From positions 1-64,000 of the forward strand of contig JAVECL010000033.1 in NCBI GenBank assembly GCA_051942245.1: 64,000 nucleotides of DNA, written 5' to 3'. Under the pieces are notes generated by a model. It saw only the letters and a list, made by a program, of their open reading frames with translations, was not told where the DNA came from and did no database searches. Shown here in pieces: positions 27,705 through 57,977 of the stretch; the first letter of the stretch is position 1, and each line of letters opens with the position of its first letter. The stretch comes from Trypethelium eluteriae (lineage: Eukaryota). The position numbers were made by a program, and so were the translations under genes.

Positions 27705-30700
27705 TTACCCACTGAGCAGCTTCTCAATGATCTGATTTGCCAACTCTTTCGGACTGTTTCCTTTGGCGACCAAATCCGCGAACCTGATGTTCAACCCAAA
27801 CGTCTTCGCTAGCCAGCTGCGCAACTCCACTCCGATCATGCTATCGATGCCAAAGCTCTCCATATTGCGCGTCACGTCAATCTCATCCAATGGCAGAAAC
27901 AGCAATTTTGCCAACCGTTCGACGACAACGCTAAGGGCAAGCTCGCCTAGTGACTGTCCATCCTCGGGCGAAGATTGGCCTCTAGCCTTAACCTTGTCGA
28001 TGTGCGCAAATAGCTCGTCGGCGCCAGTTCCTCCACCCTGCCCAGATATCGCCGCACCATTCTTACGCTGCATCTCGAGATGATAATTCCGGATACCCTG
28101 CATCACGTAGGCGAACCGGCGATCTCTCGCCCACACAAACTCAGCGCCCAGGTGCGACGGATCAAGAGCATGGATCTGGCTTGGCTCTAGACCGCACAGG
28201 AGATGCGCGCCCGCAAGTGGATCGGAGGGGACTGGATCACAGCCGATGGAAGGAGAGCTGGCGAACGCGATGTCGAGGACGCGGAGCAGCTCAGGCTGAG
28301 TGGTGCCGTAGACGCCGTTGCGGGTCAGAGCGCGCTGGATTTCGGGACGACTGCTGGCGAAACCGACATCCAGAATCATTCCAAAGGCGAGCGCTTGTGC
28401 TGGGAGCGACCGTGAGACGCGCATGCGGGCGAAAGCATCTTGAAAGGCATTTGCAGCACTGTAGGCTGACTGAGTCGCGGTGCCAACGAGAGTGACGATT
28501 GAACTGGTCATGGTGAAGAAATCGAGCGGCTGAGTCAGAGTGGCCTCGTGCAAATTGATCGTCCCCTGGACTTTCGGAGCAAGAACTTTCTGCATCTGCG
28601 CAAACGTCATGCTTTCGAAGTTGACGTCCTGTCCAGAGAGTGAGTCACGCCATTCGATTTGAACTTCGACAACGGATATACTACCTCAAATACGGCCGCC
28701 GCGTGAAGGACTCCACGAACTTTTCGATCCTTGGAGCACTTCTTGATCACGGCAAACACTTCGTCCTTGACCGTCACATCGCAAGGAATGACTTTGACGT
28801 CAACTCCTCGGTTGCTTAACTTCTCAAGTCCAACTGTCACTGCAGATGATTGCTTCATGGACCGTGATAGATGGACCAAGTGCCTAGCGCCGCGATCTGC
28901 CATCCAAGAGCTAATTGTTTGTCCCAGACCACCAAGGCATCCGACAAGTATGTATGTAGCAGAAGAGCTAAACGAAGTCCGTGGTGCGGAAGTCAAGACC
29001 TGTCAAGGCTCGTCAGTATCTTAAGGCACCTCATCTTTCCAAGTGCGGACCTTTAATTTGGATTTCGGATCTCGGAAAGTAATAACAATCTTCCCCACGT
29101 GGATTCCCTTCGACATGTACATCATCGCCTGCTCAAGCTCTGAAATGTCAAACGTTGTGATGAAGTCAATGGGCTTTATAATCCCTTGGCGATACATATC
29201 GATAATCTGCTTCATGAGACTGTTCGTAGCTGTCAGCCTCTTTACGTCTATGATGACTTGCTGTCACAGTATCTTCACGATGACAAGGGCGAAAAGCGAC
29301 AGTATGGACCTACCCTCCGACCGTCTGTGGCTTTTGACGATTCATCAAACCAAGATCGAATGATGTAAAGGTCGCATTGCGTTCAAATCCTTCGAGTGGT
29401 AAATTGCCACGATTCAGGACATCCGTCCGCCCAACATCAATGAATCGCCCCATTGGCGCAATGCATCTCCACGCCTCGCGCAAGTGCTCCGCACCTGCAG
29501 AGCACAATATCACATCAATGCCCTTGCCACCCGTCATCTGCCATATCTGCTGGTAGGTGGAGATTTCGCGCGAGTTAAAAATGTGGTCTCGAGGAATGCC
29601 GAATTCCCCTACCAGAAGATCAACTTTGGAAGCGTTTCCGACGGTGGCGTAAATCTCTGCACGCAGGTGCTGTGCAATCCGCATGGCTGCAAGACCGAGT
29701 CCGCCTGTAGCGGATTGGAGGAGCACTGTCTCGCCTTGGTTGAGATGGGCGAGGTGGAGTAACGCGTAGACGGCGGTCATGTAGCTGACGGGTAGAGAGG
29801 CCATTTGCTCCGGTTTGTCTCTCTTGTTTACTTTTTGGACAGTGAAGGCCGGAGCGCGGACGAAGTTGCCAAAGTTTCCTGGTACGGCGCCAACTACGCG
29901 ATCGCCAGGCTGGAGCTCCTTGACTTGGGCACCGACCTTGGAGATAATCCCGCAACATTCGGTACTGAAATTGTTCCAGTCAAAATGGCCTGTCGCCACC
30001 GCTAGATCCTACAAAATGAGCGATGGGTTAGTATGGTCTTATCTACATTTGTGAACAATGTTGTTTGTACCTTTATGTTGAGGCCCATCGCCTCTGTTTT
30101 GATCTCTACCCAGTCATCTCCAAGTTCCGAGCCGAATTCGAGGTCTCGTTGGAATCGAAGTGAACTCAGGCGGCCCAGCTTGAAATCAGCCTTAACAGGC
30201 TCAAGGCTCCCAATCTGTGCCAGTCGAGTCTCCTCGACAATGCCATTCTGAATCTTGAATCGTGAGTTGAGGGTTGAATCCGGAACTATCCTACTGATGT
30301 ATAGACATCCATCATGAACGAGCTGTAAGGTGTCACTCGCTTCATCGCCTCTTTCGAGATGTAGCCTCGCTTCTCTCCCGACGACTATATCGGCGTCGGC
30401 GCGCGAGTGCTCAATATTTGAGCTAAATACAAGGTGGGCGAACTGAACAAGGGGAAACTCACGAGCAATAGTGCCCCAGAAGCCAATATCGAGACCCAAC
30501 TCAGGGTCCGGAGATGATACAAGCCCTCCAATTGATAGCCAGAGGATCGATGACGCTTCCCGCAACACGGACTTTACACCTTCAAACACTTTTTGAACGC
30601 GGAATAGCGTTGCCGGGTCCTCGAGTCCTATGATCGACACCACCCGCGCGCCTTTCGGTACGCGCGCGTCGGATACGGACACAAGAACGGGCTCGAGATT

Positions 30701-33700
30701 CCTCTGGAGCAGAGAGTCTTCGATATAGTGCGCAAATGACGTAGGTTCATTGTTTGTGAGCAGGAAAACGCGCTCCTTAGGTACTAGCCTATCCATGGGC
30801 GCGTCCTTTGGCTCGATCGCCGTGGTCACAAGCACGGAAGCGGTATTTATTCCTTCCGGATAATCGTTTAATGCGAGGTCGATGCCCGAAAATCCATTTC
30901 GTAGAAGGGCGTCGTGCCACATCTCCTTGCTCAGCAGAGGGCTGTCAGCTCTGCCATCATTAACACCGTTCCAGTAGTCAGGCAGAGTTCCCAGTACCAA
31001 GCCCGTCGCTAGATGGGTCCGGGTCAATTCGAGCAGCACCATTTTCCCTCCTGCCTTCAGCAACTTCCGCGCATTTATGACCGTCTCGGCGATTTTGCGG
31101 GTGGCGTGTAGTACCTGCGATGCAATAATCAGATCATACCCGCCGGCCGTGAAGCCCTGCTTAACAGGATCCTGCTCTATGTTCAATTTCCTGTATACAA
31201 CTTCAGCATATCCCGCGAATTCCCGTTCTGCAGCTGCAAAGAAGGCAGACGTAACATCAGTGAAGACATAGCTTCTATACCGCCGGAAGATTTGCTCGGA
31301 TGCAAGCGTCTGGAGGACCAAACGAGTTGTACCTCCGGTCCCAGCGCCGATTTCTAGAATGTCCATGCTCGGTAATTTATGTGCGATCAGGTCGATGATG
31401 CGGTGGACTTGAGGATATGCGCCGGAAATGCCGATGCCAGATATGTAAAGGTTGGTCAGGAGATTATCCGCCAGAGTCAATTGCAGGCCGCTTAATTTGC
31501 TGGACAAGATCGCAGGCATATTCTTGTAGATACGTTTGATGATGTTAGCCTCCACAACCTCACTAAGGCTCTCGAATAGTGCTTCTATTGTCTCTGCCCG
31601 CGTTTGCTCTGAAGCCGAGACTGCCTCTAATCCGTACGATATCTTTCCAGTTCTTGCTGCAGTGTGGCAGCGATGGACCCAATTGCAGAACGCTTTGAGA
31701 GATTCCTCTTCGGGCTCTATTGATGCTGTAACAAAATCCAACGACAGTTGTACAAGTATATAGCACGACAGTCGGTCAAGCTTCTCAAATATTGGACCTG
31801 CGAAGTCGCGTGAACCTACTGGCGGGAATTGGCTTTGCGCCTGCGCACTGCCTAAAGCTTCAAAATCAGGTCTCCACACTAGCCTGGAAAAAGGGTTTTG
31901 CGATGCTCCTGCGTTGTCCGATCCCGCTAATGGATTGCTATAGGAAACGCATTTCAATGCTTGCAGGTCCATGATCAGATTTCCAAACGGGTCGAACAGT
32001 TGAGCTTGGCCGTACACTCCGCGGGGACCTCGGAGTTCGCCCTTTGCGACGCAATAGCCTACAGGGTGGACTGCTTCGGCGCCATGAGCCCAGACGGATA
32101 GCCTATCTATTAATATGGGTATAAAAGCAGACTTAGCCGAATCTAGAATTCCACCATGAGCCGCTATGAGCCCAAGTTGAAGGCAAGTGTCCAGAGTTGC
32201 TGGATGGAGGCAGTATTTCGACTCTCCGTTCATCATGGACGCAGTGGGTATCATATTGACATCGGCGGTAGCGACGTGTTGAAATGGCTGCGCCTGGAGA
32301 TTGGAGAGGCCTTGAAATGCGGGACCATATCCCAATCCTAGCTGTGCAAACTTCTGATACCACCTAGGAGCGCTCAAAGTCTCATAGCAGGCCTCATTCA
32401 CCGTTGAAATATGTTCATAGTCTAAGATGACTGGTTACTCCTAAGGCTAAGAGGTGCAAGATATCCCTACTTACGATTTTTTGACGTCTCAACACAGACA
32501 AGTCCATTACAATGCTCTGTCCAGCTCTCCGTATCCGACTGCAGAGATGTGATTTTGAACTCGTGCCATATGGAGGAGTGCATGCTATTTGTTAGAGCCA
32601 CTTTCTGCAAGTGAAATATTATCTCAATTCCGTATTCGTCGTCAGGTATTTCCAGGGTTGAGTTGATAGACACGTTTCTGAAAGAGTATCCTGCCGGAGT
32701 GACATTTTCTGTGGTTTCACTGTGATATTGATACGCGGCCTCCATGGCCATTGCAAGGAAGCCAGCGGCTGGAAAGGTGACCTGCAGAATGAGCTTGGTG
32801 AATATTAGCCAATCAATGCCAATTATACGGGGCTGATTAACGACGGAATACCTTGTGGTCTTTCAGCCAAGGCACATCCTTCAAACGAAGCATATTTCTC
32901 CAGGTAGGATAAAGTTTTGAACCACCAGCCTGTCTCGCACCAAGAAGATCGTGCCGTAAGTACTTCCGGAGCCTCCATTCTCTGTTCTGCCGATTTTCAT
33001 ACAAAATGCTTGGGCCATAGTGGTAGACATAGTTGGGTAGGCCTATGCATACCGAGTTCTGAATCGCGTTGACATTTCCAGTGGAATGATCGCCCGATGT
33101 ATTTAGCAATCCGGCTTTGAAGGTAAAATTGTTGAGAAACAAAATTCCTCCTAGCTCTAGCATGCATTCTAGTGCATCACCGCCTCTTTTCAAGGTGCTA
33201 AGCAGGATCGGCGATTTACCTGTGGGGAATCGCTTGTTCTGTAATATCTGCTTTACTGAACCTTTCAGTGCTGGATGGGGTCCAATCTCAAGTAGAGCAT
33301 CAAGGGTCTGAAGAGGCAACTGCTCACACGCGTCAGAAAATCTGACAGGAGACTCAAGATTCTCTCTCCAATAGCTGGGTCCTAATTCAAAGGCTGTAGT
33401 ATCTTTCCGTGGGCGAACCGATGATTGCCAAAGTATCGAAGGCAAGAGCGTCTCAGAAACTATTAGATGTTGTATTTCTCTCAATCCGGTGGTGACAGAG
33501 GATTCGTATTCTTCTCCAAGCTCAGCCATGTGATGAGAATGGTACGCATTGCTGCCAGTTTGAAGCGATCTATTGAAAACTCCGTCTCGTTGAAGCTGGT
33601 GAGATATGCACTCTATTTCTGCGGCGTCCCCGGAGAGAGTTACAGCATTTGCGGAATTGATTGCAGCAATACTGACGTGCGCCTCCTGCCCTGCTAAATA

Positions 33701-36299
33701 TGTGAGTACATCATCCGGCCCCAATCCAACTGCAAGCATGCCGCCATTTCTTTTATTATTACCCACAGTTAGTCCTCGAAAGTAGGCTAGCACTATGGCT
33801 TCTGCAGATGTTATGCGGCCGGCCGAATAGGCTGCAGCGATTTCCCCGGAGGAATGGCCGACGACAGCTTCGGGCTTTATCATCCACGAGGAAAGAAGAT
33901 CAACAAGCGCTACCTGTAAAGCTGTACATACTGTCTGAGAAATCTGCGGCTTGTTTATTTGTGATGCAAGTTCTGGTTTGTGTAATACATCCTCGATACG
34001 CCATGACGGCTTCTTAGATAATGTAGTTAGTACTTTGTCCTGATATCGTATCGACTCTCCAAACGTAGCGTATTCGTCCATAAGCTCAGCACCCATTCCA
34101 TGCCATTGAGCGCCTTGGCCAGTGAAAATAAACCCGATTCGCTTCATAGCTACACTAGGAGATTTCTGGTGGGCGACATGTTCCCAAATGAGCGCCTCGG
34201 ATATCCTGTTCGAGGGTACAACGGCGAAGGCTCGTTGTGCGAATTGTGACCTCCGGTCAGAGAGTGTGTAAGCTAGAGCCGCAGCTTGATACTGATGCGA
34301 AACTCTTGAGATTGCATTGAAGTGGTCCTTTAGAGAATGCTCGTTATGAGCCGAGAATATCAACAAAACCAGGCGACGCGTTTGATCGACTACTGACCCA
34401 TTTCGATTGCACGAATCTCGTTGAGCGCCGTTCGCAGCATCAGTTTGGCAGGTCAAAGAAGTATGAGAGTGCTTATTCCGTAGGTTTCCAAGAGACGGTA
34501 GTTGGCTCGTTGAGCTTCCCTTCACGGGAGTAGGATGGGGAAAATGGCCACCAGGGGAATGAAGTCTTTTATGGTTCTCGTAAATGCGATAACCTGGGAG
34601 GATATTATGCACATGGTCTAAGATAAGCTGTTTTGAAAAGGTTGCCGTCAATATCAGCACTGATTTGCTTCTTGAAGGTTTTCTCACATGAGCATTTGCA
34701 CCGCCGTACCCAAAGGAATTGACACTGACACGACGCATAGTCTGTGGAGGCCAGGAGGTCAAGTCAGTGACGACTTTGGTACGAGATTCTTTGAAATTGA
34801 CTGTAGAAGATCAGTCTCTGGACTCATGCTAATTCCCAAAGGAATACGGAACGCACTGGCTGGGTTCAGATTAATTATCCCCCTGGTCGGCGGAATTTCA
34901 CCATGCTCTAGTGCTAGAACAGCTTTCATGATACTGGCAATCGCGCTAGCAGATTCGCTATGTCCAAGGTTCGGTTTTATCTGCACACTCTATAGTAAGC
35001 TAAGACCAACCCAGTCTCTGCAAATTGCCACTGGGAATCATCCGACGTACCGATCCAATATAGAGGTAGTCGCGTTGTTTGTGTTCCGCGAAGACTTTCC
35101 CTATAGCAGAGACTTCAGTTGGATCTCCTACTGCAGTTCCTGTGCCATGACACTCGAAATAGCCAGTGTCAGCTGGGTTCAGGTATCCGGCATTTCTGTA
35201 GGCATCTCTGATAACAGCTTCTTGTCCAGTAGCACTAGGATGAGAAATTCCGTCCGATCGACCATTACTGTACTACATTAGCACAGTGAAACCTGGCCAA
35301 AGAGACATACCTACGTATTGATGGCAATGCCTCGAATCACAGCTCTGATAGGATACTCGCCTTCCACAGCATCGCTCAATCGCAATATGTACAGTGCCCC
35401 GAAGCCGTCGGCTCGGGCGTAGCCATCGGCAGCTGCATCGAATGTGTGGCAGGTAGATGTTGGTGAGATAGCGCCCAGCTTTGTTGTAAAGATTTGCGCC
35501 ACTGGGTCTGTGATTAAATTGCTTCCAGCAACAATTGCACTATCGCAATCCCCACTTCGAAGGCCAGTAACAGCAAGTTGCAAAGCATACATGGATGAGG
35601 AACACGCGGTGTCAATAGTCAGACTTTGATAGAGTTAGCGAGGCTTCTACGGTAAGGATCTGCTGATTCCTCTCTACTTTACCTGGGTCCTCTCAAGTCA
35701 AAAACATAATTAATTCTATTACTTAGTATAGCCACCCCACCACCGGTTGTCGCATAAGGCAAAGGGTAATCAGCGTCACGTAATTGCATGTTCTGGTGAT
35801 CAGCGTTGAAGTTTCCGACGTAAACCCCAGTTCGCGATCCCGCAAACTTTTGCCAAGGTTCGCCAGCATTTTCGAAAGCTTCATAGGTAACTTCCAGTAG
35901 CTTGCGCTGCGCAGGGTCTAAGCTGCGGGTCTCAATAGGACTAATACCGAATAAGCTATGATCAAACAAGGTTGGATCATCGTCTAGGAAAAATCCTCCT
36001 CGTGTATAAAAGCTCCCGGGACGGTGCTGTTCGGGATGATAAAATCCATCTAAGTTGATTCTCTTATTGGAGAATTCGCGGTATCCAGAGCGCTGCGTCC
36101 TCAACATCTCCCATAGGTCGGATTCAGTCGACACGCCACCTGGCCAGCGGCAGCCTTTCTAAATTAATGATCAAGGTAGTGCAAGGAGGAATGCATTTCA
36201 CTTACCCATTCCCACAATGGCGATGGGCTCAGAGCATGATGAGCGCAGCAGGTGGCGATCGGTCACCGACGGCCTTTCTGCTTCAGCCTGAAAACTCAT
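27705..36299 (-). CDS. Highly reducing iterative type I PKS: KS-AT-DH-CMeT-ER-KR-ACP
   Basis: EPIAIVGM start; KS DTACSSS, ECHGTGT, KPNLGHSE; AT GHSSGE and AYHSHHM; DH WLKDHKV and HPATLD; CMeT ILEIGAGTGG and VLHAT; ER LLQSATGGLG; KR ILVGCLGGLG and YSAAN; ACP GIDSMIGVELRSW; no C-terminal TE or R domain; multi-exon. Confidence 0.95.
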
Positions 36300-36466: not shown

Positions 36467-36604
36467 CCGAACAACGTCGGTCATAGCCCGATTACCACAG
36501 GGAATAACTTCTTATTTGAGAAATCAGGACAGCTGACTGAAAAAGCAACTGAGCGGTCATGGTGACAAAGCTTAATTTCTTGTGGCCATGCCGCATGCTT
36601 TCGG
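36467..36604. promoter_or_regulatory. Two CCG-N8-CGG sites upstream of the PKS
   Basis: CCGAACAACGTCGG (36467-36480) and CCGCATGCTTTCGG (36591-36604). Confidence 0.65.
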
Positions 36605-38656: not shown

Positions 38657-38670
38657 CCGGCAGTTTACGG
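38657..38670. promoter_or_regulatory. CCG-N8-CGG site upstream of the O-methyltransferase
   Basis: CCGGCAGTTTACGG; a near-match CCGAATAATGTAGG lies at 38639. Confidence 0.45.
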
Positions 38671-39633: not shown

Positions 39634-40990
39634 CTAAAGTGAGCCGGAGCTGTGGTCCACCTGATACCGCCTTGTCACAGTGATTTTGCCTCTATCAGCG
39701 ATCATCGGCTCAGAATCCGCCGGCGCTTCATCGTTGATTCGTTCGTACGACTTCGCCGCCACGGGCGGGCGGTCGATCAGGGGTACTTCATGGTCAATTG
39801 ATCGATTCGATATCTTCGACAGATGGTCGCCTGGCAGATAAGTACGTGTCGTACTCAAGGACGAGCCCGGTTGCTGCTTAGCCTTTGTGGCCCCGCCCGA
39901 GCCCGTCACACTTCGGCGTGTCCAGGCCATGATCCTGCTGTTGGACAGTTTAGAGAAAACGGGAGGCAACATGGGCAGACACGCGCTGATGATTCCGAGC
40001 ATGGGCTCAAGAGGACCGAGAATGGCGAAGTACCAGATAGTGTAAGTGAAATCGTTGTAATCGATCTCGAGAACGTATTTGAGTCGGACACCTGCAACTA
40101 AGCAGATACTGAGATATCTTAGCTGACTATTCCTTCTTCCTGCTATACTTGACTCAGCTCACCCCAAACCAACACTAAAAATACCAGCCGTAGAAATTTT
40201 CTTCCTAAGTGGCATGTTCAGATTCCACAATATTGGGAGCGGCATTCTGTCCGGAATTCTTAGTCATTGTCTTCTTGTATTCTTGGGCGACATACGCAAA
40301 GATGACCAAATCAAGTGCGGTATTTATTACACCCGGAATGAGGTACGCCAGCTGCTCGTTACCACATTTGCCATCAATCTGCTTTGTTCCAGTAAAATCG
40401 CAGCGGTCGACAGATCAAGAACTCTTCGAGAATGAAGGCAGTCATGCAGACAAGACACAGCGCCATCATTCCATACACTAAGAGGCGAAATTGTCGTTGC
40501 TGGCGACCAAAAATGACAAGGTAGAGATGTAATATGGAAACTTTGATCGCGCCAATGGCTAGGTTCCATATGATGTCTGCGACGAAGGCGAGTAGCCCTG
40601 CTGTTTCGAGCGTGGCCGTCCCTCCATGGTACAAGTATATATCTTGCGCGTGGAGGCCAACACCGCCTGCGACGACCACTAACACATCTCAATCAGTCAC
40701 AAAGCCCTTTCGGAATGTCTCCAGAATAGTTCAAATACCTGCTACTTCAGACGCCACCTCTCCGACGATGAATATCTGCAGCTCAATCAGTCTCGATCAT
40801 CCATCGTCTTTTTTAAGAAGCCTATGCTTACTGTTCCAGCGATGATGGCCCAGTCATTCAACTCGAGCGACTTGCTAGTAAGCCTGCGCGCCCAAATCCT
40901 GATCCCGACGGCAAGCAAATCCAGGATCAAGAAAACCGCAAGGATAATTATTAAAGTCCTGCCCCTGTAGTTATTCGCCGCGAGATTCAT
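39634..40990 (-). CDS. PTH11-like (fungal rhodopsin-domain) integral membrane protein, no CFEM
   Basis: LAVGIRIWARRL...LNDW, AIKVSILHLYLVIF, ICRPLRFYWNK, PLRKKIST, EPMLGIISACLPML motifs; multi-exon. Confidence 0.85.
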
Positions 40991-41777: not shown

Positions 41778-41791
41778 CCGAAGATTCTCGG
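41778..41791. promoter_or_regulatory. CCGA-N6-TCGG site upstream of the PTH11-like gene
   Basis: CCGAAGATTCTCGG. Confidence 0.6.
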
Positions 41792-43682: not shown

Positions 43683-45424
43683 TCACGCTATTACAGGTGC
43701 AAAAAATCGAAACCGGTTGTAAGGATCCCATTTCGCTTTTAATGCTTTGAGTCTCTCCAATCTCCAAGTATCATAGCCATACAACTCTTGCAACGATTCA
43801 TCGCCATAGGCGTAATTAACGTAAGCGTACAGTTCAGACTGTCCACTGTCTGCATACATATTTCTACGGATAGTGGACCCAAAATCTACTGCGTTCTGGT
43901 CTAGAGAAACGTCGGAAAGATAGGAGATCACGGGAGAGCTAATGGTAGATTAGAACAATGGTCAGGCAAGAGCTAGCAGTCTAATAGAAGGAGAAGCTTA
44001 CACGATAACTTTCGCGCTTCGGTTGGGTACCGCTGTAGACTCCATAGGAACAGCTTGCACTGCTTGGATCGAATAAGCCTCGAATAGGACGAGTGACGTA
44101 TTGAATCCTGACTGCTCGGAAGTTGTCGCATTATATAGATCAAAGATTGATCGTTGGGAAGACACATTATACTGTTGAATGGTCAAAGGGAACTTCAAGC
44201 GGTTATATCCATCTTGACAGATTTGTGAGCTGTCGTCATTGCCAGTGATTGCAGCTAATCCGGGATAGTTACCAGTGCCATTAGTTATTGATAGAGGGGA
44301 TAGGGACCGGTAAGGAGCGGCATATCGTTGACCTGTTGCCATTGGCCCATTGTATAGTACGCTAAATAGCAATACAGCCTAGGGGATATTTCAGTCAACG
44401 AATCATTCATGCAATTGTGTGATCTGGTAGGCTTACACTCTGGGAGTCAACCGTCGGTATACGAATGAATACAGCGTAACTGAGAAGGGCCGGGTCCGTG
44501 TAATTTGCACTCATTTGGTTGGCTTCAGTGAAGACATCCTCGATCTGATCTGCACCAAAAATGAACGTCTCGTAGTACCATGAATCAGCAGAGGCAACAT
44601 CATAGACTCTTAAATCCAGCTGGGTGATGACTCCAAAGTTGTGTCCCGCGCCTCGGAGAGCCCACAACAGGTCAGAATGGCTTGTGGCTGACACTGTAGT
44701 CGCAGTTCCATTCGCTGTGACAAGACGGGCGCTGATAAGGTTGTCCGCGATGAGACCGTAACGGCCCTGTAGGAAGCCATGTCCGCCTCCCAGAAGAGCT
44801 CCCACAAAACCAGAGCATACACCCGCCCCAGACACTATGAAGTGCATTAGACAAATCGATGCAATGTAAGTTTGATAATGTACCAGTCTGCTTCTGGAAA
44901 TTCCAAAGAGCATTAGTCACCTCTCCATTAAGAGCGCCCCCTTGTATAGTTGCGGATTGACTCTCTTTATTAATCTGAATGTTCTTCATCCCTCTCATGT
45001 TTATTTCTATTCCATTATGGAACTTGCCAAGCGACAGGATAGCGCCATGGCCGCCTGACTTGGCAAGAAATGGTATATTATTTTGATTCGCATACTGAAC
45101 CTTGGCAGTTGTTAATTCGCAGCGCAAGTAGATAATGGAGCTTTAGAGACCTACTGTAGCAATCACATCACCTTCTGTCATCACATTTACCGCTGCCGAA
45201 AATGAGGGATCGGCATAGTCCTGCCATCGTTTCGTTGCATTGTCAAAACCGGTTGAATTCGGAAGGAAGATGCTTGCACCGGGAGAAAGCTTGGGGCCAA
45301 GAAGATCAATGATATCTGATCTCCGTTGGAGGTAAGTATTAAATTCCACGTTATACGAAACGAGTGAAATCGCAGCGTGGAAGAAAAAAGCAAAAGACAA
45401 GAGAATGACAGAAAACGATTGCAT
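43683..45424 (-). CDS. Secreted FAD-binding oxidoreductase, BBE-like (no. 1)
   Basis: Signal peptide; KSGGHG covalent-FAD His; GGGHGFLQGRYGLIADN; WALRGAGHNFGV; YVNYA.GDE; LKAKWDP. Confidence 0.9.
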
Positions 45425-45583: not shown

Positions 45584-45597
45584 CCGATAATGTTCGG
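45584..45597. promoter_or_regulatory. CCGA-N6-TCGG site in the divergent FAD oxidase 1 / SDR 2 promoter
   Basis: CCGATAATGTTCGG in a ~280-bp divergent intergenic region. Confidence 0.65.
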
Positions 45598-45703: not shown

Positions 45704-46516
45704 ATGGCTGATTCCACCAACGTTTTGATTACCGGCCCTAATCGCGGCATTGGCCGTGCGCTTGTCGTAGCCTTTCTGGCCCGCAAGAACACAACCGTTG
45801 TGGCTGGTGTGCGTGATCCCGCTGCGGCTGCGTCCGTCAGCCTGGCCTCGCTGCCGCCCGCCGACGGCAGCAGAATCATCGTCCTTAAGATCGATAGCGC
45901 CTCTGATACGGACGCGAAGGAAGCGGCTCAGCAGCTCTCCTCGACGTACGGCATCACCAAGCTGGACATTGTGGTTGCTAACGCTGGAATCGGCGACACA
46001 GCTGAACCAGTTCGCTCTACCCCGCCCGACGCCATCCGGTGCCACATAGATGTCAACGTCATCAGCGTCTTGACCCTTTTCCAGGCCGTCGAAACCCTCC
46101 TGCATCAAGCGGCCGCGCCAAAGTTCTTTACCATGTCCTCCAACTTAGCTAGCATAGGTCTCATGGAACATCTCCCCGGTCCTTGGCTAGCGTACGGCAT
46201 ATCCAAGGCCGCCCTCAACTTTTTGACCCGCAAGATCCACTTTGAGAATGAGTGGCTTACAGCTGAGGTTCTAAGTCCCGGTTGGGTTCAGACGGATATG
46301 GGGGTATTTGCTGCTAAGGCTATTGGCATGGACGGCGCCCCTGTGACCATGCAGGATAGCATACAAGGCGTCATGAAAGCTGTAAGTTAAGCCTTGCGAG
46401 CTTTCTGCATCTCTGTTGCTAGACCGATGCTAAAGTGGTTATAGATTGACGAAGCCTCTCGAGAGAAGACTTCAGGAGCCTTTATCTCACACGAGGGGCA
46501 ATCAGTCCCATGGTAA
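45704..46516 (+). CDS. Short-chain dehydrogenase/ketoreductase (Nor-1-like)
   Basis: VLITGPNRGIG, LDIVVANAG, MSS, YGISKAALN, PGWVQTDMG; intron 46382-46444; last exon IDEASREKTSGAFISHEGQSVPW*. Confidence 0.9.
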
Positions 46517-46786
46517 ACCGCAGATACGAGCCAGCTTATATGTACCCCTTACAAGAATCAGAGATGCCCAACGTCCGCCTGAGTTTGGTCGCCCATCTCA
46601 TGCTATTTCTCCTGTGTGCTAACTTCCACTCTGGCATTGATGCGCCCCCAAATTCATAGGCAATGCCAATGACAAGAATGATCACCATCGTTCTAATGGC
46701 ATTTACGCACAAAAGGATGGAGTCATCCTGGTTCGCTACCGTAAATACATAGAATAAAGTTCTAATAAGCTTGAAATACCAAACTT

Positions 46787-49315
46787 TTAATCGCCATTGA
46801 AAAGATTGGGCCATTCTTCTAATGTAACATTGTCCAAATCCACTTCAAACAGTGTCGGTCGAGGAGCGGACTGGGACCATCCCGGATCACTGGGTCCACT
46901 TCTTAATCCAGACGACGAGAAATCAGGGCTGGTACCGAGCTCGCCACTGCTTAGTGAGGGACATAGCGGCATCGAGTCGCGAGAATTGCGGGGATTGTGG
47001 TTGACAGGGCCGTTCGGCATAGACCATTGCAAGCCTTCTTCCCCCCTGAATTTTGGAATGGCTTTGCTAGGCGACGTTACTGGAGGTTCCATACCAGACA
47101 GAGCAGGATATGTTTGGAGCATGGTGTCATTGTGCGTGACGTCCTGAACCAATTCAAAGCCCAGCCAGCTGTTCGTGCTAGCCTGGTGACTGTTCATCTC
47201 ATCCTGTGCACGTTGATCCGCTGCAGATGAGAAATGTTCCGTGCTGGAAGGTAAAGTGTCGATTCTGGCAAGGACTTCATGTAATTTTTGCATGCCGATT
47301 TTCGCAATCACATTTGCGTCTTGGAGCGTAGTTAGACGTTCCACTGCCTTTTCAATGTGTGATCGGCAATGAGCTGCTGTAACTGCGCTCCTAGGCATCC
47401 CGTGTAGTGTTGAGAAGGCCATGTCCCGGAAGATGGAGTTGCGTTTGTTCTGTGCTCGAGCTTGAATCAGGACCTTATGGCTTGGTGCTGCACTGATGAG
47501 GCATATAGCGAGCAGCATTGCGGGCTCAAAGGTAAAGAAGCTGAGGAGGAAAAACCGAGCTCGATGCCCGCCCATCAGCTCATGTAATCGGCTGACACTT
47601 TCAAGCAAACATATGGCAGCCCTAACTAATTGTGTGCGGTGTGTCCATATTAAATCCTGCTTATACTGCGGCATTGCTTGACTCTGCTCCAAGGTTAGGT
47701 GTAGGAGGGGCTGAAACAGTTGGCATAGGACTGCAAAAACTGAGATACGGAGCATTTGCCGTTGCCGAGGTAGCATTGGGAACTGATGGTCCCACTGTAG
47801 GTCAGGGTCGTTCAAGTCAAGTACTGGCGGTAGTTGAGCCAGAAATTCATGACACAGGCGTTCGTAAACCTCCTCAACATAGCTTGGATTGTATATTTCC
47901 GAATTGGCCGGCTTCTGTGTAACCGTAGCAAAGCAAAACTTACTAAGTTTAGCCTGAAGGATACGCTCAATGAACACATCCGGAGCATTGACGTTGTTCA
48001 CGTTTTTGGGAAGAACATGCATCTTTGGTAGATCAACACGGTAAGTGTGGTCTTCTGGGATACAGGGCGAACGTCCAAGAACTAGCGAGAGGAAACGATC
48101 CCAGATGTACAGATTCCAGAATGCTCTGCGTCTCATGTCCTTTTCTAGATCATTGATGGGTGTTTGTGATGTCAGCGGCTCTTCGAGGCCGACACTCAAG
48201 TCTTGAAAGACTCTCACTGCAGTTCCGAGAGCATACCAAGCATCCCGTATCGACCCTTCATTTTTGACATAGCAGGCGTGGTAGAACAGTTGATGTACGC
48301 AAGACAGCGACTGTGGACCTTCAAGCTCCCCACATACTCTGTAGAGCCGTGTTGCTAATCTGTTACAATGCGTACGGATAATATCAACAGGGATACCGAG
48401 TAACTCATCTGTAGTGTGGGTTTTGGACGGTATGAATTGTGCGCTATAAGCACAGATACGAAGTATTAGAATTCCAAACTCGAGGCTTTCCTTATTCGAT
48501 CCTGGAAAAGATCTCCACCACTGTTCGTAACGATTCAAGAATAAAGTTGGATGGATCATTTCATATATCCAATTGACCTCCTTGAAGAAGTGCTGGATCA
48601 GGCAGTTGACGACGGAATGCTTTGGATAGTAATCAAGGCACGCGCGAATCTCTGGAAGCATCCGGTCCGGAACAGCAGCTGAAAAGTCTGACCCCAGCTT
48701 TTGGTTATTGAGGAGGTCGAACTATATGCAACAAGGTATATTGTCAGCGCTATAGAGCATGGAAAAAGGCGCAGTTGCTCGAGCAAGTCAAGATTATAGA
48801 GCGATTGGCCCCACTGAATACGAGATATACAAAAGGCCTGAAAGAGCAGCGTTACAAAAATAAAGGTGCTACCCATGCCTTTTCCATAAGACTAAAAAGA
48901 TTCGACTTGCTTCCTTCAAAATAGCCAAGACACGATGACAGGGACGTCTGATACGAGACTTTGCGATCCAGTTCAGAAGTAGCTGGCACTGATGATGATG
49001 CCTGTCGCGACTCGCTAAGTCTACTCGATCTTGCACTCGGGTCTGGAGGATGAGGTCCATTGTGACTCTCTGCGATCAAGTCCGAGTCCTCTGGCTGCGG
49101 TGCTGCGGTGTTGGTGAAAGAGTATGTACAAAGCTCCGGTAGTCTGCGGCGAATACAATTGGAGCATGGATATCCGTGGTTACACTGGACGTGAGGTCAG
49201 CTGTCAGATCCGCCTTGCGCGGCGTTATCACAAAGAAAAGCCTGACTTTCTGCTTCTTCTGGTAGCATTGACTGCACGCGGCTACGCGCTTCCTTTTCGG
49301 GATGTCGGATGGCAT
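46787..49315 (-). CDS. Zn(II)2Cys6 transcription factor with fungal-specific TF middle domain
   Basis: Spliced CSQCYQKKQK|CNHGYPCSNCIRRRLPELC gives six Cys; EKDMRRRAFWNLYIWDRFLSLVLGR in the large exon. Confidence 0.92.
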
Positions 49316-50053: not shown

Positions 50054-51933
50054 CTACTTCCTGTGAAATAGAATGCTTTTGTTCGGGTCTGGGAAGTTTG
50101 CGTCTGCCCAGTTGAGGTTCTTTGGCCGACTTGCGCCGACTGGCAGCCGAAGCTCGTAACTCTGCACGATATGGCACAGAATGATCTTGCTCTCCAGCCC
50201 AGCAAAGAAACGCCCGGGACACGCAAATCGCCCATGTCCAAAGACAAGGCTTCCGGGGCCAGTCGAGGTAAAGTGGGTAGCTTTTAGCCCCTTCCAGCCG
50301 TCGCCTCGCCGTAGCCGGTCAAACCGAAAGCCATCGAATTCAGCTGGATGCAAAAAATGATCGGCTGACTGTGCATCCGGTCCAGAGGCTACTGCTATGT
50401 AACTAGATCGAACAAGGCTCTGTCCATCAGATAGCTGGTAGTCTGCAAGTAGCTTACGATTAAAGGATACTGCTCATCAAAGGTTAAGACTTCATCGGAT
50501 GGCATATCGTCAAATGACATGAAAGGAGATATTGGACGTACAAGCACTGGGTGGATTGAGACGTTGAGACTCTTTCATAAAACTGTCTAATTTCGACAAC
50601 TTAGTGACGGTGGACTTCAGCATTGTGCCATTGTCGGCTTCTAGAGCCGTCTCAATTTCTTTGATAAGCTCCGGTGCGTATTGATCCCATCGAGCAGCTA
50701 AGTCGTAGATGACATTGGTAAGGTGATTCGTGGTGGTGTGGATGGCCGCGAAACTGAGACCAAGCTGACGATTGACTATGCTTTCCGGTTCGGCATCAGG
50801 CCCCTCCGACATTTCTATCAGCGCGTCCAGCATATCCCGTGGCCTATCTACTCCGTGTCACAATTTCAATTCCACACAAGTTTTGGGGGCGCCATACCTT
50901 GATCTTGCCCATCTTCACGGGCTTGCCGTCGACGTTTGATTTCTGGAATGAGTATCCTTCGTGCGTTATAATGATGGTACCAGATGCGCCAGATATGAGG
51001 ACTCAATAATGCTCCAAAAAGCTGCAGAACTGGTGGTAAGACTTTCAGATACGCTGATGAGAGGAAAACACATGATGCAAAATCAATGGACGTATTAAGC
51101 CATGCTTTGTTTTCAACCAGCTGGTCTCCCACCAGGATGGCTCCCGTGGTACGTCCCACAATCTGTAACAATGTGTGATGCACCGGCACTGATGTCCAGT
51201 CTCGTAAATGTAAGTGGACAGAGCGCATCAAGCCAATAGCAGAAAGGATCAACTGTCTAACCTTTGCAGTCCGGAAACTCCTTCTCAAAAGCCAGCTTGC
51301 AGCGCTCGCTCAGTGGCCTAACTAGCGTCCCCAATTTCTGAGTAAGGTGGCTATGAATCACATTCCAGGTGACCTTTCCCATCATTCTGTAGGCATTGAG
51401 CGAAGTGTAGGACCCAAGAAAATACTAGACCAAAGTTCAGCTAGATCCAAACATATGACGTTACCTTAGACCAAATTAATGGAGAGAAATCCCCTCTAGG
51501 TATTACCTTATCAACAGCAAGAGATGAACTCGCAACAGACTCAGGCTGGCTTTTCAACTCATCAATATACTGCGGGGGAAGAATGAAGAGCTCTGGGTCC
51601 ATCAGAGGCACTTGCACGATTTGGCCATTTTCCTACATGATTCTCCAATGAGTTTCAACAGTCTCAGGCTGTGGAAGGGATGCGTACCTTCTTCAAAAAT
51701 TCGAAGATCATTCGGTAGCCGCTAACCACATACTTAAAGCTCATCCGTAGCCTGCTAAGCCAGCTAGAAGTTGGGGCACACAATATTCTAATTCTTCCAT
51801 TGGCGAGTCTTTCATCATTTGTGTGAACAACACTGACGAATGATAGGTATAATAAGCCTAGAAGTATTATGGCGAATGTCGAAGATTGAAGAACTGAGAA
51901 TGGAAAATGCCAAATCATAATTCTGAAACTCAT
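50054..51933 (-). CDS. Cytochrome P450 no. 1 (ent-kaurene-oxidase-like clan)
   Basis: N-terminal TM anchor; LSFAAIHTT I-helix; LDSFMKESQR (ExxR); FDGFRF; FGHGRFACPG heme motif. Confidence 0.92.
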
Positions 51934-52246: not shown

Positions 52247-52368
52247 CCGCAAATGTTCGGCGAAAATCCTTCGGCCCATCATCCGGCGCCGATATTGCTC
52301 GGAAATTAGCATTCGGTGGAGTACATACTCCTACGTATTATAAGCAGAGTCCGGCCGAAATTCCTCGG
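52247..52368. promoter_or_regulatory. Three CCG-N8-CGG sites upstream of P450 no. 1
   Basis: CCGCAAATGTTCGG (52247-52260), CCGATATTGCTCGG (52289-52302), CCGAAATTCCTCGG (52355-52368). Confidence 0.7.
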
Positions 52369-53259: not shown

Positions 53260-55135
53260 CTATTTGATCTTGAAGCCTCCGGGTACTTGATGCTGAAACA
53301 TGCCGGACGGGTCATATTTCTGACTCACAGCCTCTAGTTTCTTATAATTGTCAGCACCGTAACCGCGAATTGGGCTTTGAGAGGGAGCAGCATCGTTGAG
53401 GAAGATGAATTCGTCGTAGAGACCTCGCGCCTTCGTGAGAGTCTCTAGTTCAGCAATGGATTCCTCCATGATCTTGTTGACTTTATCGTCATCGCTAGCA
53501 AGCTCGTAGCCAATGTTAAGGGAGAACCCTCATATGACGTTAGCATATCGCTGAATGAGCCAAGTGCCTATTATCTTTCACTTACACATCTGCGGTCTGG
53601 GAGTCAGGCCTAGTGCGTTTCCGCCAGTTTTCTGTGAAGGTGTAATCATGCTTGTGGAGATTGGTTGAGGCATCAGCACATAAGAACCTCCTTCAATGCC
53701 TCTCACTTTCAAGGATTCATTGGTAGATATGTGGCCCAGATCCACATAAGCTTGCTCGTCAAGATAGAGAGTTGTCGATCCCCAAGCCCATCTGTGAATA
53801 ACAGTCAGCTCCATATGATGCACAGAGATGAGCTGCAACTGCTACCTTGGAACGGCGTAATTTATTTGAACATTGTTGGCCAGGTCAATAAAACTATCAT
53901 ACAAGGCGGTCGAGTCTTCCACGACTGGGATGTCATAGAATGGCTGAAACGCGGAGGGCTTCACTTCGTCCCCAAAGCTGACGTAAGTCGCGAAGATTGT
54001 CTGGTTGTTGATTGCCAGATAGGTCAAAAGAGCTGTGCTTGTATCATTCACTTGACCTTGCTTTTGATACGCCGCCAATGCGCTCATGTACTGGTCTTGA
54101 TAGGAATTGTTGTAAACAACAAGCCCACCCCATGCCTTTCCCGAAGGATAAGTCTTAAGGGACATTCGGGTGACAACACCTTATCCTATTCAGTAGATGG
54201 CAAAGAAGCTTCGACATGCAGATATACGAACCGAAGTTACTCGTCCCGCCTTTTAGGGCAAAGAAAAGGTCGGAGTTTGTTTGCGCGGATGCTGAAACGA
54301 CACTGGCGTTTGCTAATACCACCTGTGCTATGCGTCAGTCATACTGTATCGTGACGGATACCGGAGAGGCTCACAGTGAAACTGATTACATTGTCGCAGG
54401 AAAAGCCAAATCGATTCGTGAGATGCGAAAGTCCGCCTAAGTCATGTCAATCGCTCTTTCTTGTAGGTTGGAGTGTGACGTCCAACCTCCGATGGTCAGC
54501 GCAAGGCCTACTTCAGGAACTCTTCCGCCGACAACTATGCGACCGAACCCTTGTAAGTACTCGTACACGTCACCCCATCGATTGCCATATCCAACAGTCG
54601 CGATCTGAGTTATATTGTCGTAATTGAGTTCGGTGACGTCAGACATCGAGATTAGGACACCATCGTCGATATTTGCCCAACCCGCAAGCGGAGAATGACC
54701 CCCGGACCTTATCGCATATGGTGAATTTGTGAATCCCAGAACTTTTATAGCAAAGGCGACGTCGTTGGTGGATGTTGGCAAATATATGCAAGCTGGAGTT
54801 CCCCATGCGGTGGGGGACCTAGATTTGGTTAGCGAGCTGTGCAAAAGAAGTTTAAAAGCTACCATATCTTACCAATTCTCGTCCGCTTGCGCCGTATAGT
54901 TCGCACCATCAGCTGCAACCTCAACCCTTTGGTGTCGAGCAACTGATAGTATAGAGCAAGCCAGTACTGTAGAGCCGTCATTTCTGACGCTGCTCGGGAT
55001 GTCTGCAGGGTCTAATCCGACAGATTCCAGGAATGTGTTGATACTGGTGTTGCTGAGTAGACCGTCTAATGAGGGAATGACACTTGCAGATGCCGCAACC
55101 GCGAAAAACAGAAATGAACAGAAAAAACCTAACAT
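53260..55135 (-). CDS. Secreted FAD-binding oxidoreductase, BBE-like (no. 2; Sol5-like features)
   Basis: Signal peptide; IRSGGHS; VVGGRVPEVG; ALKGGTSNFG; FLNDA; KYDPSGMFQHQVPGGFKIK C-terminus. Confidence 0.9.
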
Positions 55136-55542
55136 TTTCCACAGGCCCAAGGAAGGACAGCGATGCGGGAGGATGAAAATAGTCAAATCCGATGTGTCGT
55201 GTTCAGGGCAATGTCTTATAAAGTCTACTGTAGCCCTCAGGCAGCGTCTCACACGGGCCGAGGATCGTTTACACTAACGACTACTGACCCAGGGGGCACA
55301 GAAGGCAATGACCAACAGACCTTAGTGCAATATGCAGGCGTCCCGTTCCTTCTTTTTGTCAGGTGCCATGTGCGCTACACGTGCGAATGCAGTGATCAAT
55401 ACCGAGCATCTGCACTTACCAAGCCATCTTATGTATTCTTGGGAAGTCAAACAAAGCAGCATTCTCGAGATTGGTTACCAACGAGCAAGAGCTGAGTCGT
55501 TGGTGAGGCATAAAAGCCATGTGAATGACATGGCACCCTGGA

Positions 55543-55556
55543 CCGATAATTCTCGG
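55543..55556. promoter_or_regulatory. CCGA-N6-TCGG site in the divergent FAD oxidase 2 / P450 no. 2 promoter
   Basis: GA-CCGATAATTCTCGG-TC (palindromic arms extend two more bases). Confidence 0.65.
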
Positions 55557-55896
55557 TCGACGGGTTTCACCAATTCTCCATGCGACAATCGTCCGCAATA
55601 GTAAGCGGCACATCAGATGGGACACGGACTAAGAGCCAAAGCGGCATAGAACATGATGATTCTCTTCTCAGAGCGCCAAGCCCATGTCGAGCAGGGTCCA
55701 AGAAAGTTTCTTGAAAATGACGGAGAACCAATTGGAACTGCTGTTTGCTCTAAAGAAACGCACCGGTACTAATCGCGGTATCAGAATCGTCGTCAGCCCA
55801 GGGGCCGCAATATCAGTATAGGGAAGGCTGGTATCCTAATCCTTTACTTTGCTGTAGCAATGGTCTGCGTCTGACGACGATTTGCAAACGAAAGGA

Positions 55897-57977
55897 ATGA
55901 GAGACGCAACCTCAAGTGTTACCATGACATTATTCCTGAGCATTGGTTACCTGAGTGGCAATTTCATCGTCGGACTCGCGGCCTTCGTGTTTCTGCTTTT
56001 GAGGGCCTTTTATCGGCTGTATTTTCATCCACTGGCGAGATGGAACGGTTCGAGAATTGCAGCCATTGATACAGCATGGTAAGAGATGCAGGATTTTCCC
56101 GTGAAACTTGAATGTTACACATGACCGGTATGACTTATCTGCCGTTTCTCGTTCAGGTATGAGTTTTACTGGAATGTTCACCTTCCAGGCCAACTGCTCT
56201 TCGAGATTGAAAAGCTACACAATATTTATGGTAACTACCTTGCGCAGCGCGCTTGCTCTTGAAGACAAAACACTTACCTTCCTAGGACCTGTCGTCCGCA
56301 TCGGCACCAACGAGCTTCATGTGAATGATCCATCTGTCTATCTCGACATAACAAGCGTCGGCTCAGACTTCCGGAAAGAGCCAGATTTCTACCATGGAAT
56401 ATCTCTTGAAGGCACATCGATCGGAGGCACTGATCCGGAAAAGCATCGTGTACGACGACAAGTGCTTGCACCGGCATTTTCAGCCAGCACGATTCAGAAA
56501 CTCGCCCCATTAGTAGAAAACAGTTTTAAGAAGCTGTGTGAAAAGATGGACTCCATAGCATCATCCGTTAATGCAGTCAACGTGAAATTGGCATTCAAGA
56601 GCTTTGCTCTAGACGTGATTAGCGAAATCGTTTTTGGACAAGCATTTGGGGTGATGGAAGAACCGAATTTTCATCATCCATACTTAGACTCTCTCCAAGA
56701 CACAATCAGAGGCGCTTGGATTGCTAGAGCGTTCCCAACTTTAAGTACACTATCTCGATCTTTGCCAAAATCCATATCGGCAGTTCTCTTTCCTTTGTCA
56801 ATCGCCCAATTCTCAAAGGTGAGTCAACTAGACATAGTGGAGATCCTAAGAGTCGCAATATTTAGCCGGTGCTGACGGCTTGGATGACAGGATAATAAAG
56901 CTTTGCCCGATAAATATCTGAAAGAACGGAGATCAGCAATTCAATTGGCTGACGGAAACACTCAGAAGACCTATGGGACTCGAAAGAAAGAGTCCGTAGC
57001 GTTGGAACTGCTTCTCGATATCGATTCAGCCAAAAGACATATAGTACCCCCCCCTGACAAGCTACACGATGAAGCAATGATGCTCCTCACCGCTGGTAAT
57101 GATACAACGTCTAACGCAATGATCCTTGGATTGTATGAGATATGCAAACACCAAGACGTCCACCGCCGTCTAGAAGATGAATTACGGTCTGCAGTGCCCA
57201 CGCCGTCACAAGACATCAAGTACGCGACCGTAAAGAAACTTCCCTACCTAGTAAGCATGCCGAACGAAGCACAATCTCTGCTTTGTTGTATGTACTGAAG
57301 CACTGCGGTAGACAGCAGTCATCAAAGAAGTCCTCCGTTATGCACCCTCCGTGCCAGGACGGCTACCAAGGGTGGTGCCCGAAGGCGGATATGAACTTTA
57401 TGGACAACAACTACCCGCAGGTGTATGTAGCTGCCGAAATCCAGCGCCCTTGACGAAAACTTATGCTGTAGTCTGACAAGTTCAGACCATAATTCATACA
57501 TCAGCGTATCTTTTGAACCGTCACCCATCAATTTGGGGCCCCGATTGTAAAGAGTTCAAACCAGATCGCTGGCTGCTGCCAGATTCGTCTACGCTTGATA
57601 AATATCTAGCGTCATTTCATAGGGGTGCAAGACAGTGTCTCGGAATCAGGTGGGTTTTCTGCAAGATACACTGTGCAAAGTGTGCCTTGCCTTTGCATCC
57701 AGTATGTCCCGCAAAGAAGCATACTAACTTGTAGAAACAAGTCTCGCGTGGTGCGAATTGTATATCGTCTTCGCCACATTATTCCGAAAATATGAAATTG
57801 AAGTCTTCAATACTAGCGATGCGGATATGGAGTGGTCGGACCATCTTCTGCTCTTGTAAGTCGATGTCATCCGGTGTCTTCAGACTTCTACCAGATCGAG
57901 AAACTGCTTGCTAATAGCATATGGATAGGTTCCGCGGTAAAGATCTTCGTGTCAAACTAGAGAGAAAGAAAGATTAG
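55897..57977 (+). CDS. Cytochrome P450 no. 2 (trichodiene-oxygenase-like clan)
   Basis: YRLYFHPLA, GPVVRIGTNELH, LTAGNDTT, IKEVLR, FKPDRW, FHRGARQCLG heme motif; multi-exon; start at ATG 55897 or 55924. Confidence 0.92.

What the first reader, a model, noticed from the sequence alone, without database searches (positions are those of the whole stretch)
27705..57977. Complete ten-gene HR-PKS cluster resembling an expanded solanapyrone-type (methoxy-alpha-pyrone) pathway
Seen: HR-PKS with CMeT and ER but no release domain, immediately next to an O-methyltransferase, plus 2 SDRs, 2 secreted BBE-like FAD oxidases, 2 P450s of different clans, a Zn2Cys6 TF and a PTH11-like protein. All catalytic motifs I could check look intact. 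Established: the Alternaria solani solanapyrone cluster is PKS (Sol1), O-MT (Sol2), dehydrogenase (Sol3), TF (Sol4), flavin oxidase/Diels-Alderase (Sol5) and P450 (Sol6); nectriapyrone uses a PKS plus O-MT pair. Inference: the chain is released as a pyrone, O-methylated, then tailored by twice the oxidative toolkit of the sol cluster, so the product may be a new, more oxidised or cyclised pyrone. No hydrolase, trans-ER or MFS/ABC transporter is visible.
Basis: partly seen in the sequence, partly recalled or inferred. Interest (0 to 1): 0.82.

Follow-up and report, generated by a model that had tools for sequence, protein, structure and literature searches.

The report
Lichen fungus pyrone-type gene cluster
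Ten neighbouring genes in a lichen-forming fungus form a co-regulated assembly line that probably makes a small ring-shaped natural product related to the solanapyrones; such clusters are a known kind, but this branch has extra tailoring enzymes and its product is unknown.

Summary
The cluster is real. Ten genes lie at the stated coordinates. Nine splice to open frames with their motifs intact. The PTH11-like gene has a one-base frameshift in this window, absent from another copy. Database labels name the organism Viridothelium virens. The solanapyrone resemblance is already in print: a 2020 supplement lists this cluster as hit by 6 of 6 sol genes at a lax threshold. Expanded PKS+OMT pyrone clusters are also known (amp). 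It is not an orthologue of either: the PKS is about 40% identical to AmpB and falls outside the AmpB clade. The cluster reads as a sol-like six-gene set plus a second module (CYP1, nor-1-like SDR, FAD oxidase, PTH11-like gene). That module recurs in other Dothideomycetes, and Delitschia confertaspora is collinear at 9 of 10 positions. Added here: a promoter palindrome, CCGA-N6-TCGG, marks both modules, is absent from the flanks, and recurs in four other fungal loci. It is the likely binding site of the cluster's Zn2Cys6 factor. Best reading: a C-methylated 4-methoxy-2-pyrone with extra oxidative tailoring (0.62). No product, expression or Sol1 tree was tested.

The parts
27705..36299 (-). HR-PKS, 13 exons, 2625 aa, KS-AT-DH-CMeT-ER-KR-ACP, no release domain
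   Evidence: differs from P0001 at 4 of 2578 aligned residues
36685..38283 (-). O-methyltransferase, 434 aa, same homolog group (MCL007271) as the OMT beside the Sol1-like PKS
   Evidence: 45% to a protein automatically labelled sol2
39634..40990 (-). PTH11-like 7-TM protein (Fung_rhodopsin), conserved member of the cluster family; frameshifted in this window
40383..40385 (.). One extra base in a 3-base homopolymer that breaks the PTH11-like frame; absent in run X1
42130..43188 (-). SDR1, 324 aa, group MCL010740 (hit by sol genes; Sol3-like by inference)
43683..45424 (-). FADox1, BBE-like, 505 aa, signal-like N-terminus, His and Cys motifs suggesting bicovalent FAD; extra module
45704..46516 (+). 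SDR2, 249 aa, nor-1-like group MCL000176; extra module
46787..49315 (-). Zn2Cys6 transcription factor, 771 aa, same group (MCL011148) as the TF of the Sol1-like cluster
   Evidence: six Cys read directly
50054..51933 (-). CYP1, 519 aa, small group MCL016264 (10 genes in 101 genomes); extra module
53260..55135 (-). FADox2, BBE-like, 518 aa, signal-like N-terminus, group MCL010359 (hit by sol genes; Sol5-like by inference)
55924..57977 (+). CYP2, 519 aa, same group (MCL010964) as the P450 next to the Sol1-like PKS
36467..36480 (.). CCGA-N6-TCGG site, 168 nt before PKS (looser CCG-N8-CGG site also at 36591)
38657..38670 (.). Looser CCG-N8-CGG site, 374 nt before OMT
41778..41791 (.). CCGA-N6-TCGG site, 788 nt before the PTH11-like gene
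45584..45597 (.). CCGA-N6-TCGG site in the divergent FADox1/SDR2 promoter
52247..52368 (.). Three sites before CYP1 (two strict, one looser)
55543..55556 (.). CCGA-N6-TCGG site in the divergent FADox2/CYP2 promoter

Best explanation
A co-regulated pathway to an oxidised 4-methoxy-2-pyrone polyketide. The HR-PKS builds a C-methylated, partly saturated chain (CMeT and ER motifs intact), leaves the last extensions unreduced and releases the chain by pyrone ring closure, as Sol1 and AmpB do (inferred). The OMT methylates the 4-OH (inferred from family and linkage). CYP2 and FADox2 oxidise a ring methyl to alcohol and aldehyde as Sol6 and Sol5 do, with SDR1 in the Sol3 position (inferred from homolog groups). 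A second module (CYP1, FADox1, SDR2) oxidises, reduces or cyclises the side chain or a second methyl (inferred; no direct evidence for the reactions). The Zn2Cys6 factor switches on both modules through CCGA-N6-TCGG (site enrichment and conservation shown, binding inferred). Chain length and final structure cannot be read from sequence.
For: Intact models and motifs. No release enzyme in the cluster; Sol1 releases by pyrone formation (PMC11686517 section 5). AmpB (pyrone PKS) and Preu9 (product not looked up) were the only labels among the 120 hits listed that I recognised as studied proteins. OMT also lies beside the PKS in Pleomassaria and Lophiostoma and in 3 of 4 distinct metagenome loci. 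Published BLAST: 6 of 6 sol genes hit this locus. Collinear Delitschia cluster; a Delitschia sp. makes 4-methoxy-2-pyranones. Promoter motif in both modules and in homologues.
Against: PKS only 40.4% (global) or 37% (BLASTP) identical to the AmpB record, against 51-52% for Sol1-AmpB, and excluded from the AmpB clade (UFBoot 100). No Sol1, Sol2, Sol5, Sol6, NEC1, Alt5 or CtvA sequence could be fetched, so no direct comparison was made. The published hit threshold is only 50 bits. In the amp cluster the extra oxidases and SDRs did nothing in A. oryzae. The Delitschia pyrones come from other strains than the sequenced one and are not linked to any gene in what I read. Of 10 coding differences from run X1, 7 are missense, 4 of 4 in CYP2: too few to judge, but no sign of strong constraint.
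Confidence: 0.62

Rival explanations
1. The product is not a 2-pyrone. The chain is released as a 5,6-dihydropyrone, a beta-methoxy acid or lactone, or reductively by an SDR as in salicylaldehyde pathways, and the OMT methylates that.
For: The PKS lies outside the AmpB clade and has no characterised close relative (nearest named hits 50-55%). Two SDRs are present. Pyrone-forming PKSs are not one lineage (PMC7034978 passages), so phylogeny predicts product weakly in both directions.
Against: No cupin or hydrolase is present, which the salicylaldehyde and gregatin pathways need (recalled). The same OMT group is linked to the PKS inside and outside the AmpB clade.
Confidence: 0.18
2. A simple methoxy-pyrone from PKS+OMT (perhaps CYP2); the other enzymes are passengers or act only in detoxification.
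For: amp precedent: 8 extra genes gave the same profile. NEC1+NEC2 suffice for nectriapyrone. PTH11-like gene broken in this window.
Against: The extra genes keep order and orientation in Delitschia and Lophiostoma, co-occur significantly (8 co-occurrences, P 0.03-0.04) and carry the same promoter palindrome as the PKS.
Confidence: 0.15
3. It is a solanapyrone cluster proper: octaketide triene, with FADox2 acting as oxidase and Diels-Alderase.
For: 6 of 6 sol queries hit the locus; ER motif intact; FADox2 in the sol-hit group.
Against: Not listed in the table of signature genes at least 70% similar to MIBiG entries, where only Bysci1_c11 (89.86%) stands for solanapyrone. PKS outside the 50-56% shell around AmpB where Sol1 should lie.
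Confidence: 0.04

Closest known systems
Solanapyrone cluster sol1-6 (MIBiG BGC0000146), Alternaria solani
   Same: HR-PKS without release domain, OMT, SDR, Zn2Cys6 TF, flavin oxidase, P450; 6 of 6 queries hit this locus at >=50 bits; OMT, TF and CYP2 share homolog groups with the Byssothecium Sol1-like cluster.
   Different: PKS not in the >=70% similarity table; four extra genes (CYP1, FADox1, SDR2, PTH11-like); no direct identity to Sol proteins could be computed.
amp cluster (amphichopyrones), Amphichorda felina, PMC9146101
   Same: PKS + OMT + 2 P450 + 2 oxidoreductase/SDR + FAD oxidase; 4-methoxy-2-pyrone product.
   Different: PKS 37-40% identical and in another clade; ER NADPH motif degraded in AmpB, intact here; amp has an extra MT and two unknown genes and one FAD oxidase; amp tailoring genes were not compared by sequence.
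Nectriapyrone pair NEC1/NEC2, Pyricularia oryzae
   Same: Iterative PKS plus OMT giving a methoxy-pyrone.
   Different: Two genes only; sequences not compared.
Uncharacterised CO-OCCUR families 44, 78 and 149 of PMC7530617 (Delitschia, Lindgomyces, Zopfia, Pleomassaria, Aaosphaeria and others)
   Same: Family 44 is this cluster plus Delitschia; family 78 shares PKS, OMT, FADox2, SDR1 and PTH11-like groups; family 149 shares PKS, OMT, CYP1, SDR2 and PTH11-like groups.
   Different: Among the rows seen, only this cluster and Delitschia carry both the CYP1 and the FADox2/CYP2 groups; no product is assigned in those tables.

Membership tests
Solanapyrone cluster (sol1-6) | HR-PKS KS-AT-DH-CMeT-ER-KR-ACP with no release domain | tested here: met
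Solanapyrone cluster (sol1-6) | Homologues of all six sol genes clustered | tested here: met
   Read from a published BLAST table, not rerun: 6 of 6 at >=50 bits; gene-by-gene mapping inferred from homolog groups
Solanapyrone cluster (sol1-6) | PKS orthologous to Sol1 (>=70% similarity, same clade) | tested here: not met
   Indirect: absent from table SF; 40% to AmpB against 51-52% for Sol1; outside the AmpB clade. Sol1 itself not aligned
Solanapyrone cluster (sol1-6) | Octaketide triene and oxidase-coupled [4+2] cycloaddition | not testable with these tools
   needs expression and chemistry
amp (amphichopyrone) cluster | PKS in the AmpB clade with degraded ER motif | tested here: not met
HR-PKS + Sol2-group OMT methoxy-pyrone clusters (broad kind) | Release-less HR-PKS stably linked to an OMT of the group found beside Sol1-like PKSs | tested here: met
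HR-PKS + Sol2-group OMT methoxy-pyrone clusters (broad kind) | Release as 4-hydroxy-2-pyrone and 4-O-methylation | not testable with these tools
   inferred from Sol1/Sol2, AmpB/AmpC and NEC1/NEC2
HR-PKS + Sol2-group OMT methoxy-pyrone clusters (broad kind) | KS groups with Sol1/NEC1 rather than Alt5/CtvA | not tested
   reference sequences not obtainable; the KS search returned bacterial modular PKSs; the AmpB record lacks much of the KS and was left out of the KS tree
Salicylaldehyde-type HR-PKS clusters (recalled) | Cupin plus SDRs for reductive release | tested here: not met
   no cupin among the ORFs scanned; defining feature recalled

The most novel reading that the evidence does not exclude
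This cluster family is the unassigned pathway to pyrenocine/delitpyrone-type 5-alkyl-4-methoxy-6-methyl-2-pyrones, which the collinear genus Delitschia makes. The CYP1/FADox1/SDR2 module would perform the chemistry that puts the long chain at C5, which sol-type logic does not explain. The conserved PTH11-like 7-TM protein would sense or export the product in place of a transporter, under a TF whose site CCGA-N6-TCGG can now be used to delimit and switch on such clusters.
Probability: 0.12. Interest if true: 0.68.

Novelty: new variant of a known kind. Interest (0 to 1): 0.38.

Why it matters
It gives a well-bounded, testable pathway from an uncharacterised sister lineage of the pyrone-forming PKSs that is widespread in lichen-forming and other fungi. 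The promoter palindrome bounds the cluster, argues that the extra enzymes belong to it and predicts the binding site of Sol4-group factors. A culturable fungus with a collinear cluster (Delitschia confertaspora) offers a faster route to the product than the lichen fungus. It does not change general understanding unless the tailoring module proves to do unusual chemistry.

Tried and rejected
KS-domain homolog search: swamped by bacterial modular PKSs, not used. Sol1/Sol2/Sol5/Sol6 were not among the listed hits under those names; labels 'Prosolanapyrone synthase' and 'sol2' on other species' proteins are automatic and were not treated as characterised. Atlas and PDB look-ups for FADox2 exons gave only unnamed clusters or distant BBE-like enzymes; PDB and NCBIfam look-ups for OMT, SDRs and FADox1 gave generic families. 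The OMT exon search against representatives returned unnamed relatives and was not used. No RNA holder listed, so expression is untested. Extending the metagenome loci was not possible. Two tree runs timed out and were replaced by FastTree and a resumed 24-row IQ-TREE run. The 24 rows were hand-picked from 120; FastTree used 65 (KS) and 95 (AT-DH-CMeT) rows after length filters. FastTree joined the window group with the Teloschistales and Cordyceps/Talaromyces groups (95); IQ-TREE left that backbone unresolved (45, 67), so no sister claim is made. Cordypyrone cluster rejected as a match: it is HR-PKS + ER + P450. Plain 7-mers showed no promoter enrichment; one 8-mer reached 5 of 10 promoters against a shuffle maximum of 4 and was not followed up. 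The narrowed motif is not enriched genome-wide (48+33 matches against 55+55 for the control). Multiforisin/islandic acid clusters (recalled as close analogues) could not be read, nor Kim et al. 2015 on Sol4, so I cannot say whether the motif is in print; no search for it was run. PMC7232245 held none of my 4 terms. Earlier findings of the scan: 3 look-ups, nothing shown. No fold or complex job was sent.
Full report
Observation. Six-frame reading and Pfam place ten genes between 27705 and 57977. I spliced them by hand; all introns are GT-AG and nine models are open from start to stop. The PKS has KS-AT-DH-CMeT-ER-KR-ACP with the catalytic motifs present and nothing after the ACP. The flanks are a HET-WD40 gene and argininosuccinate synthase, and I saw no hydrolase, trans-ER or transporter ORF between them. 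The one defect is an extra base near 40383 in the PTH11-like gene. A contig of run X1 covers 38100-58000 in one piece with 14 substitutions and lacks exactly that base (the tool warns that X1 may be this DNA's source). The published model of the gene is also one base shorter. The break is therefore local to this copy.

Identity. The DH-CMeT exon finds P0001, labelled Viridothelium virens, which differs from my model at 4 of 2578 aligned residues. The next relatives are far: Pleomassaria 54.8%, Lophiostoma 52.9%, Xylographa 52.3%, Delitschia and Calogaya 50.6% over the whole protein. The pyrone PKS AmpB is 40.4% (global) or 37% (BLASTP) identical; its record is 2427 aa and lacks part of the KS, so the figure is approximate. 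Sol1 is 51-52% identical to AmpB (PMC9146101, first quarter of the text and Table 1 read). Proteins at 50-56% to AmpB lie inside a clade that excludes the window PKS with UFBoot 100, while the window PKS joins Pleomassaria and Lophiostoma with 99 (24 hand-picked rows; FastTree on 95 rows agrees on the exclusion). The backbone between these groups is unresolved (45, 67). Sol1 itself was never aligned, so its place is inferred. The same genome holds a separate PKS-OMT pair on contig C255 that is closer to AmpB (46-68%) than to this PKS (35-48%).

Already in print. The supplement of PMC7530617 (main-text passages and rows of the supplementary workbook seen; the file is cut when stored) lists this cluster as Tryvi1_c32 / Tryvi1_smash101; the PKS and OMT coordinates match the window with a constant offset. 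Table SG records it as recovered by the solanapyrone cluster BGC0000146 with 6 of 6 queries, at a threshold of 50 bits. It is not in table SF, which needs 70% similarity and lists only a Byssothecium cluster (89.86%) for solanapyrone. That Byssothecium cluster shares homolog groups with the window's OMT, TF and CYP2. The SDR1 and FADox2 groups belong to a five-gene family in which every gene was hit by a sol query. So PKS, OMT, SDR1, TF, FADox2 and CYP2 map onto Sol1-Sol6 by inference, and CYP1, FADox1, SDR2 and the PTH11-like gene are the extras. An expanded cluster of this kind is also published: amp has two P450s, two oxidoreductase/SDR genes and a FAD oxidase, and adding its eight extra genes did not change the products.

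A conserved family. The extras are not local accretions. The CYP1 group has 10 genes in 101 genomes and co-occurs 8 times each with the OMT, nor-1-like SDR and PTH11-like groups (P 0.03-0.04). Delitschia confertaspora has 9 of the 10 positions in the same order and orientation; 8 are in the same homolog group, its second FAD oxidase is in another, and no SDR1-group gene is listed. Lophiostoma keeps PKS-OMT-PTH11-like-SDR2-CYP1 in the window's order. A metagenome scan gave 8 loci that reduce to 4 distinct sequences. By tblastn, OMT was beside the PKS in 3 of 4, SDR1 in 3, the PTH11-like gene in 2, and CYP1, FADox1 and TF in 1 each; the loci are cut at 10 kb, so absences mean little. Of 119 non-self PKS hits, 9 share a contig length with a listed OMT hit and 8 of those are within 3 accession or tag numbers (matched by eye).

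A shared promoter element. Of 39 spaced CGG/CCG patterns, CCG-N8-CGG occurs in 7 of 10 500-base promoters (shuffle mean 0.78; none of 300 shuffles reached 7 for any pattern). Two pairs share divergent promoters, so these are five regions. There are 9 sites in 6,769 intergenic bases of the cluster against 4 in 33,727 flanking bases. The core CCGA-N6-TCGG, chosen after seeing the sites, occurs 6 times in the window, all in cluster intergenic DNA (shuffle mean 0.81, largest 3). The independent test is the four other loci: 10 sites in 76,429 bases, 8 in 5' regions of homologous genes, shuffle mean 0.82, largest 4, other spacers 0-3. Two sites also precede a paralogous OMT on contig C51. An everted CGG repeat is what a Zn2Cys6 dimer is expected to bind (established knowledge); binding by this TF is inferred. 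SDR1 and the TF have no site in their 500 bases here; in Ascochyta, sol4 overexpression raised all sol genes except sol3 (PMC11686517, section 5 and passages read), a parallel I note without weight. Whether the motif is published I could not check.

Mechanism. Most likely (0.62) the PKS makes a C-methylated chain with some saturated positions and sheds it as a 4-hydroxy-2-pyrone. The ER motif is intact here and degraded in AmpB, whose product has no reduced unit. The OMT would give the 4-methoxy ether, CYP2 and FADox2 would take a ring methyl to the aldehyde, and CYP1, FADox1 and SDR2 would modify the side chain. Shown: gene content, intact motifs, conserved linkage, promoter element. Inferred: release mode, every reaction, regulation. 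Against: the distance to any characterised PKS, the lax published threshold, the amp precedent, and the fact that pyrone-forming PKSs are not one lineage (PMC7034978 passages). The 10 coding differences from X1 (7 missense, 3 synonymous) are too few to read. A Delitschia sp. makes 4-methoxy-6-methyl-5-alkyl-2-pyranones and pyrenocine I (PMC13117166 passages and table), and another gives delitschiapyrone A, with no cluster assigned in the passages read (PMC8948627). These are other strains than the sequenced one, so the link is a lead (0.12). Also seen as passages only: PMC8788799 (nectriapyrone), PMC9505148, PMC9946308, PMC8262933. Ten literature searches listed no title that assigns a product to this cluster or its family; most subscription journals are not covered.

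Verdict. A real, bounded and almost certainly functional biosynthetic cluster of a known kind, already catalogued as solanapyrone-like, belonging to an uncharacterised sister lineage with a conserved extra tailoring module. New variant of a known kind; interest 0.38.

Noticed in passing
G000:C51, about 53500-58300 (L014, L015): A paralogous OMT (62%) and TF (49-54%) pair with two CCGA-N6-TCGG sites before the OMT and no PKS hit in C51:34001-73408; listed as Tryvi1_c42 in PMC7530617. Possibly a satellite or remnant that could cross-regulate this cluster.
   Followed up: partly
G000:C255, about 17400-27800 (L017, L018): A second HR-PKS + OMT divergent pair, closer to AmpB than to the window PKS, next to a FAD_binding_3 monooxygenase.
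   Followed up: partly
window 25337-27205 (-): One long open frame with a HET domain followed by WD40 repeats; no NACHT was listed between them. It sits about 500 bases past the PKS stop.
   Followed up: partly
protein P0241: A 4278-aa database gene model that fuses SDR1, the PTH11-like gene, OMT, PKS and the HET-WD40 gene; an annotation artefact that would mislead domain-based mining.
   Followed up: yes
L007 6748-11678: The PKS homologue there is split over several frames and ends early, beside a TF and SDR1 homologue: a likely decaying copy of the cluster.
   Followed up: no
proteins P0057, P0058, P0109: This OMT-linked PKS group (Talaromyces, Hypoxylon, Cladobotryum) has lost the CMeT His motif, predicting an unmethylated product.
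   Followed up: no
L004 15181-18125: An MFS transporter and a second Fung_rhodopsin gene follow the PKS in this homologous cluster, with a CCGA-N6-TCGG site at 15040 that I did not assign.
   Followed up: no
window 55924-57977: All 4 coding differences between the window and run X1 in CYP2 are missense.
   Followed up: no
window 769-24600 and 58700-64000: Housekeeping flanks: CofD-like, aldo-keto reductase, Shg1, UCH, DNA polymerase alpha subunit B, CRAL-TRIO, AA9 LPMO, argininosuccinate synthase, PI3/PI4-kinase-FATC gene. ORFs at 7030-8022, 12849-13841 and 14446-15132 had no Pfam hit.
   Followed up: no
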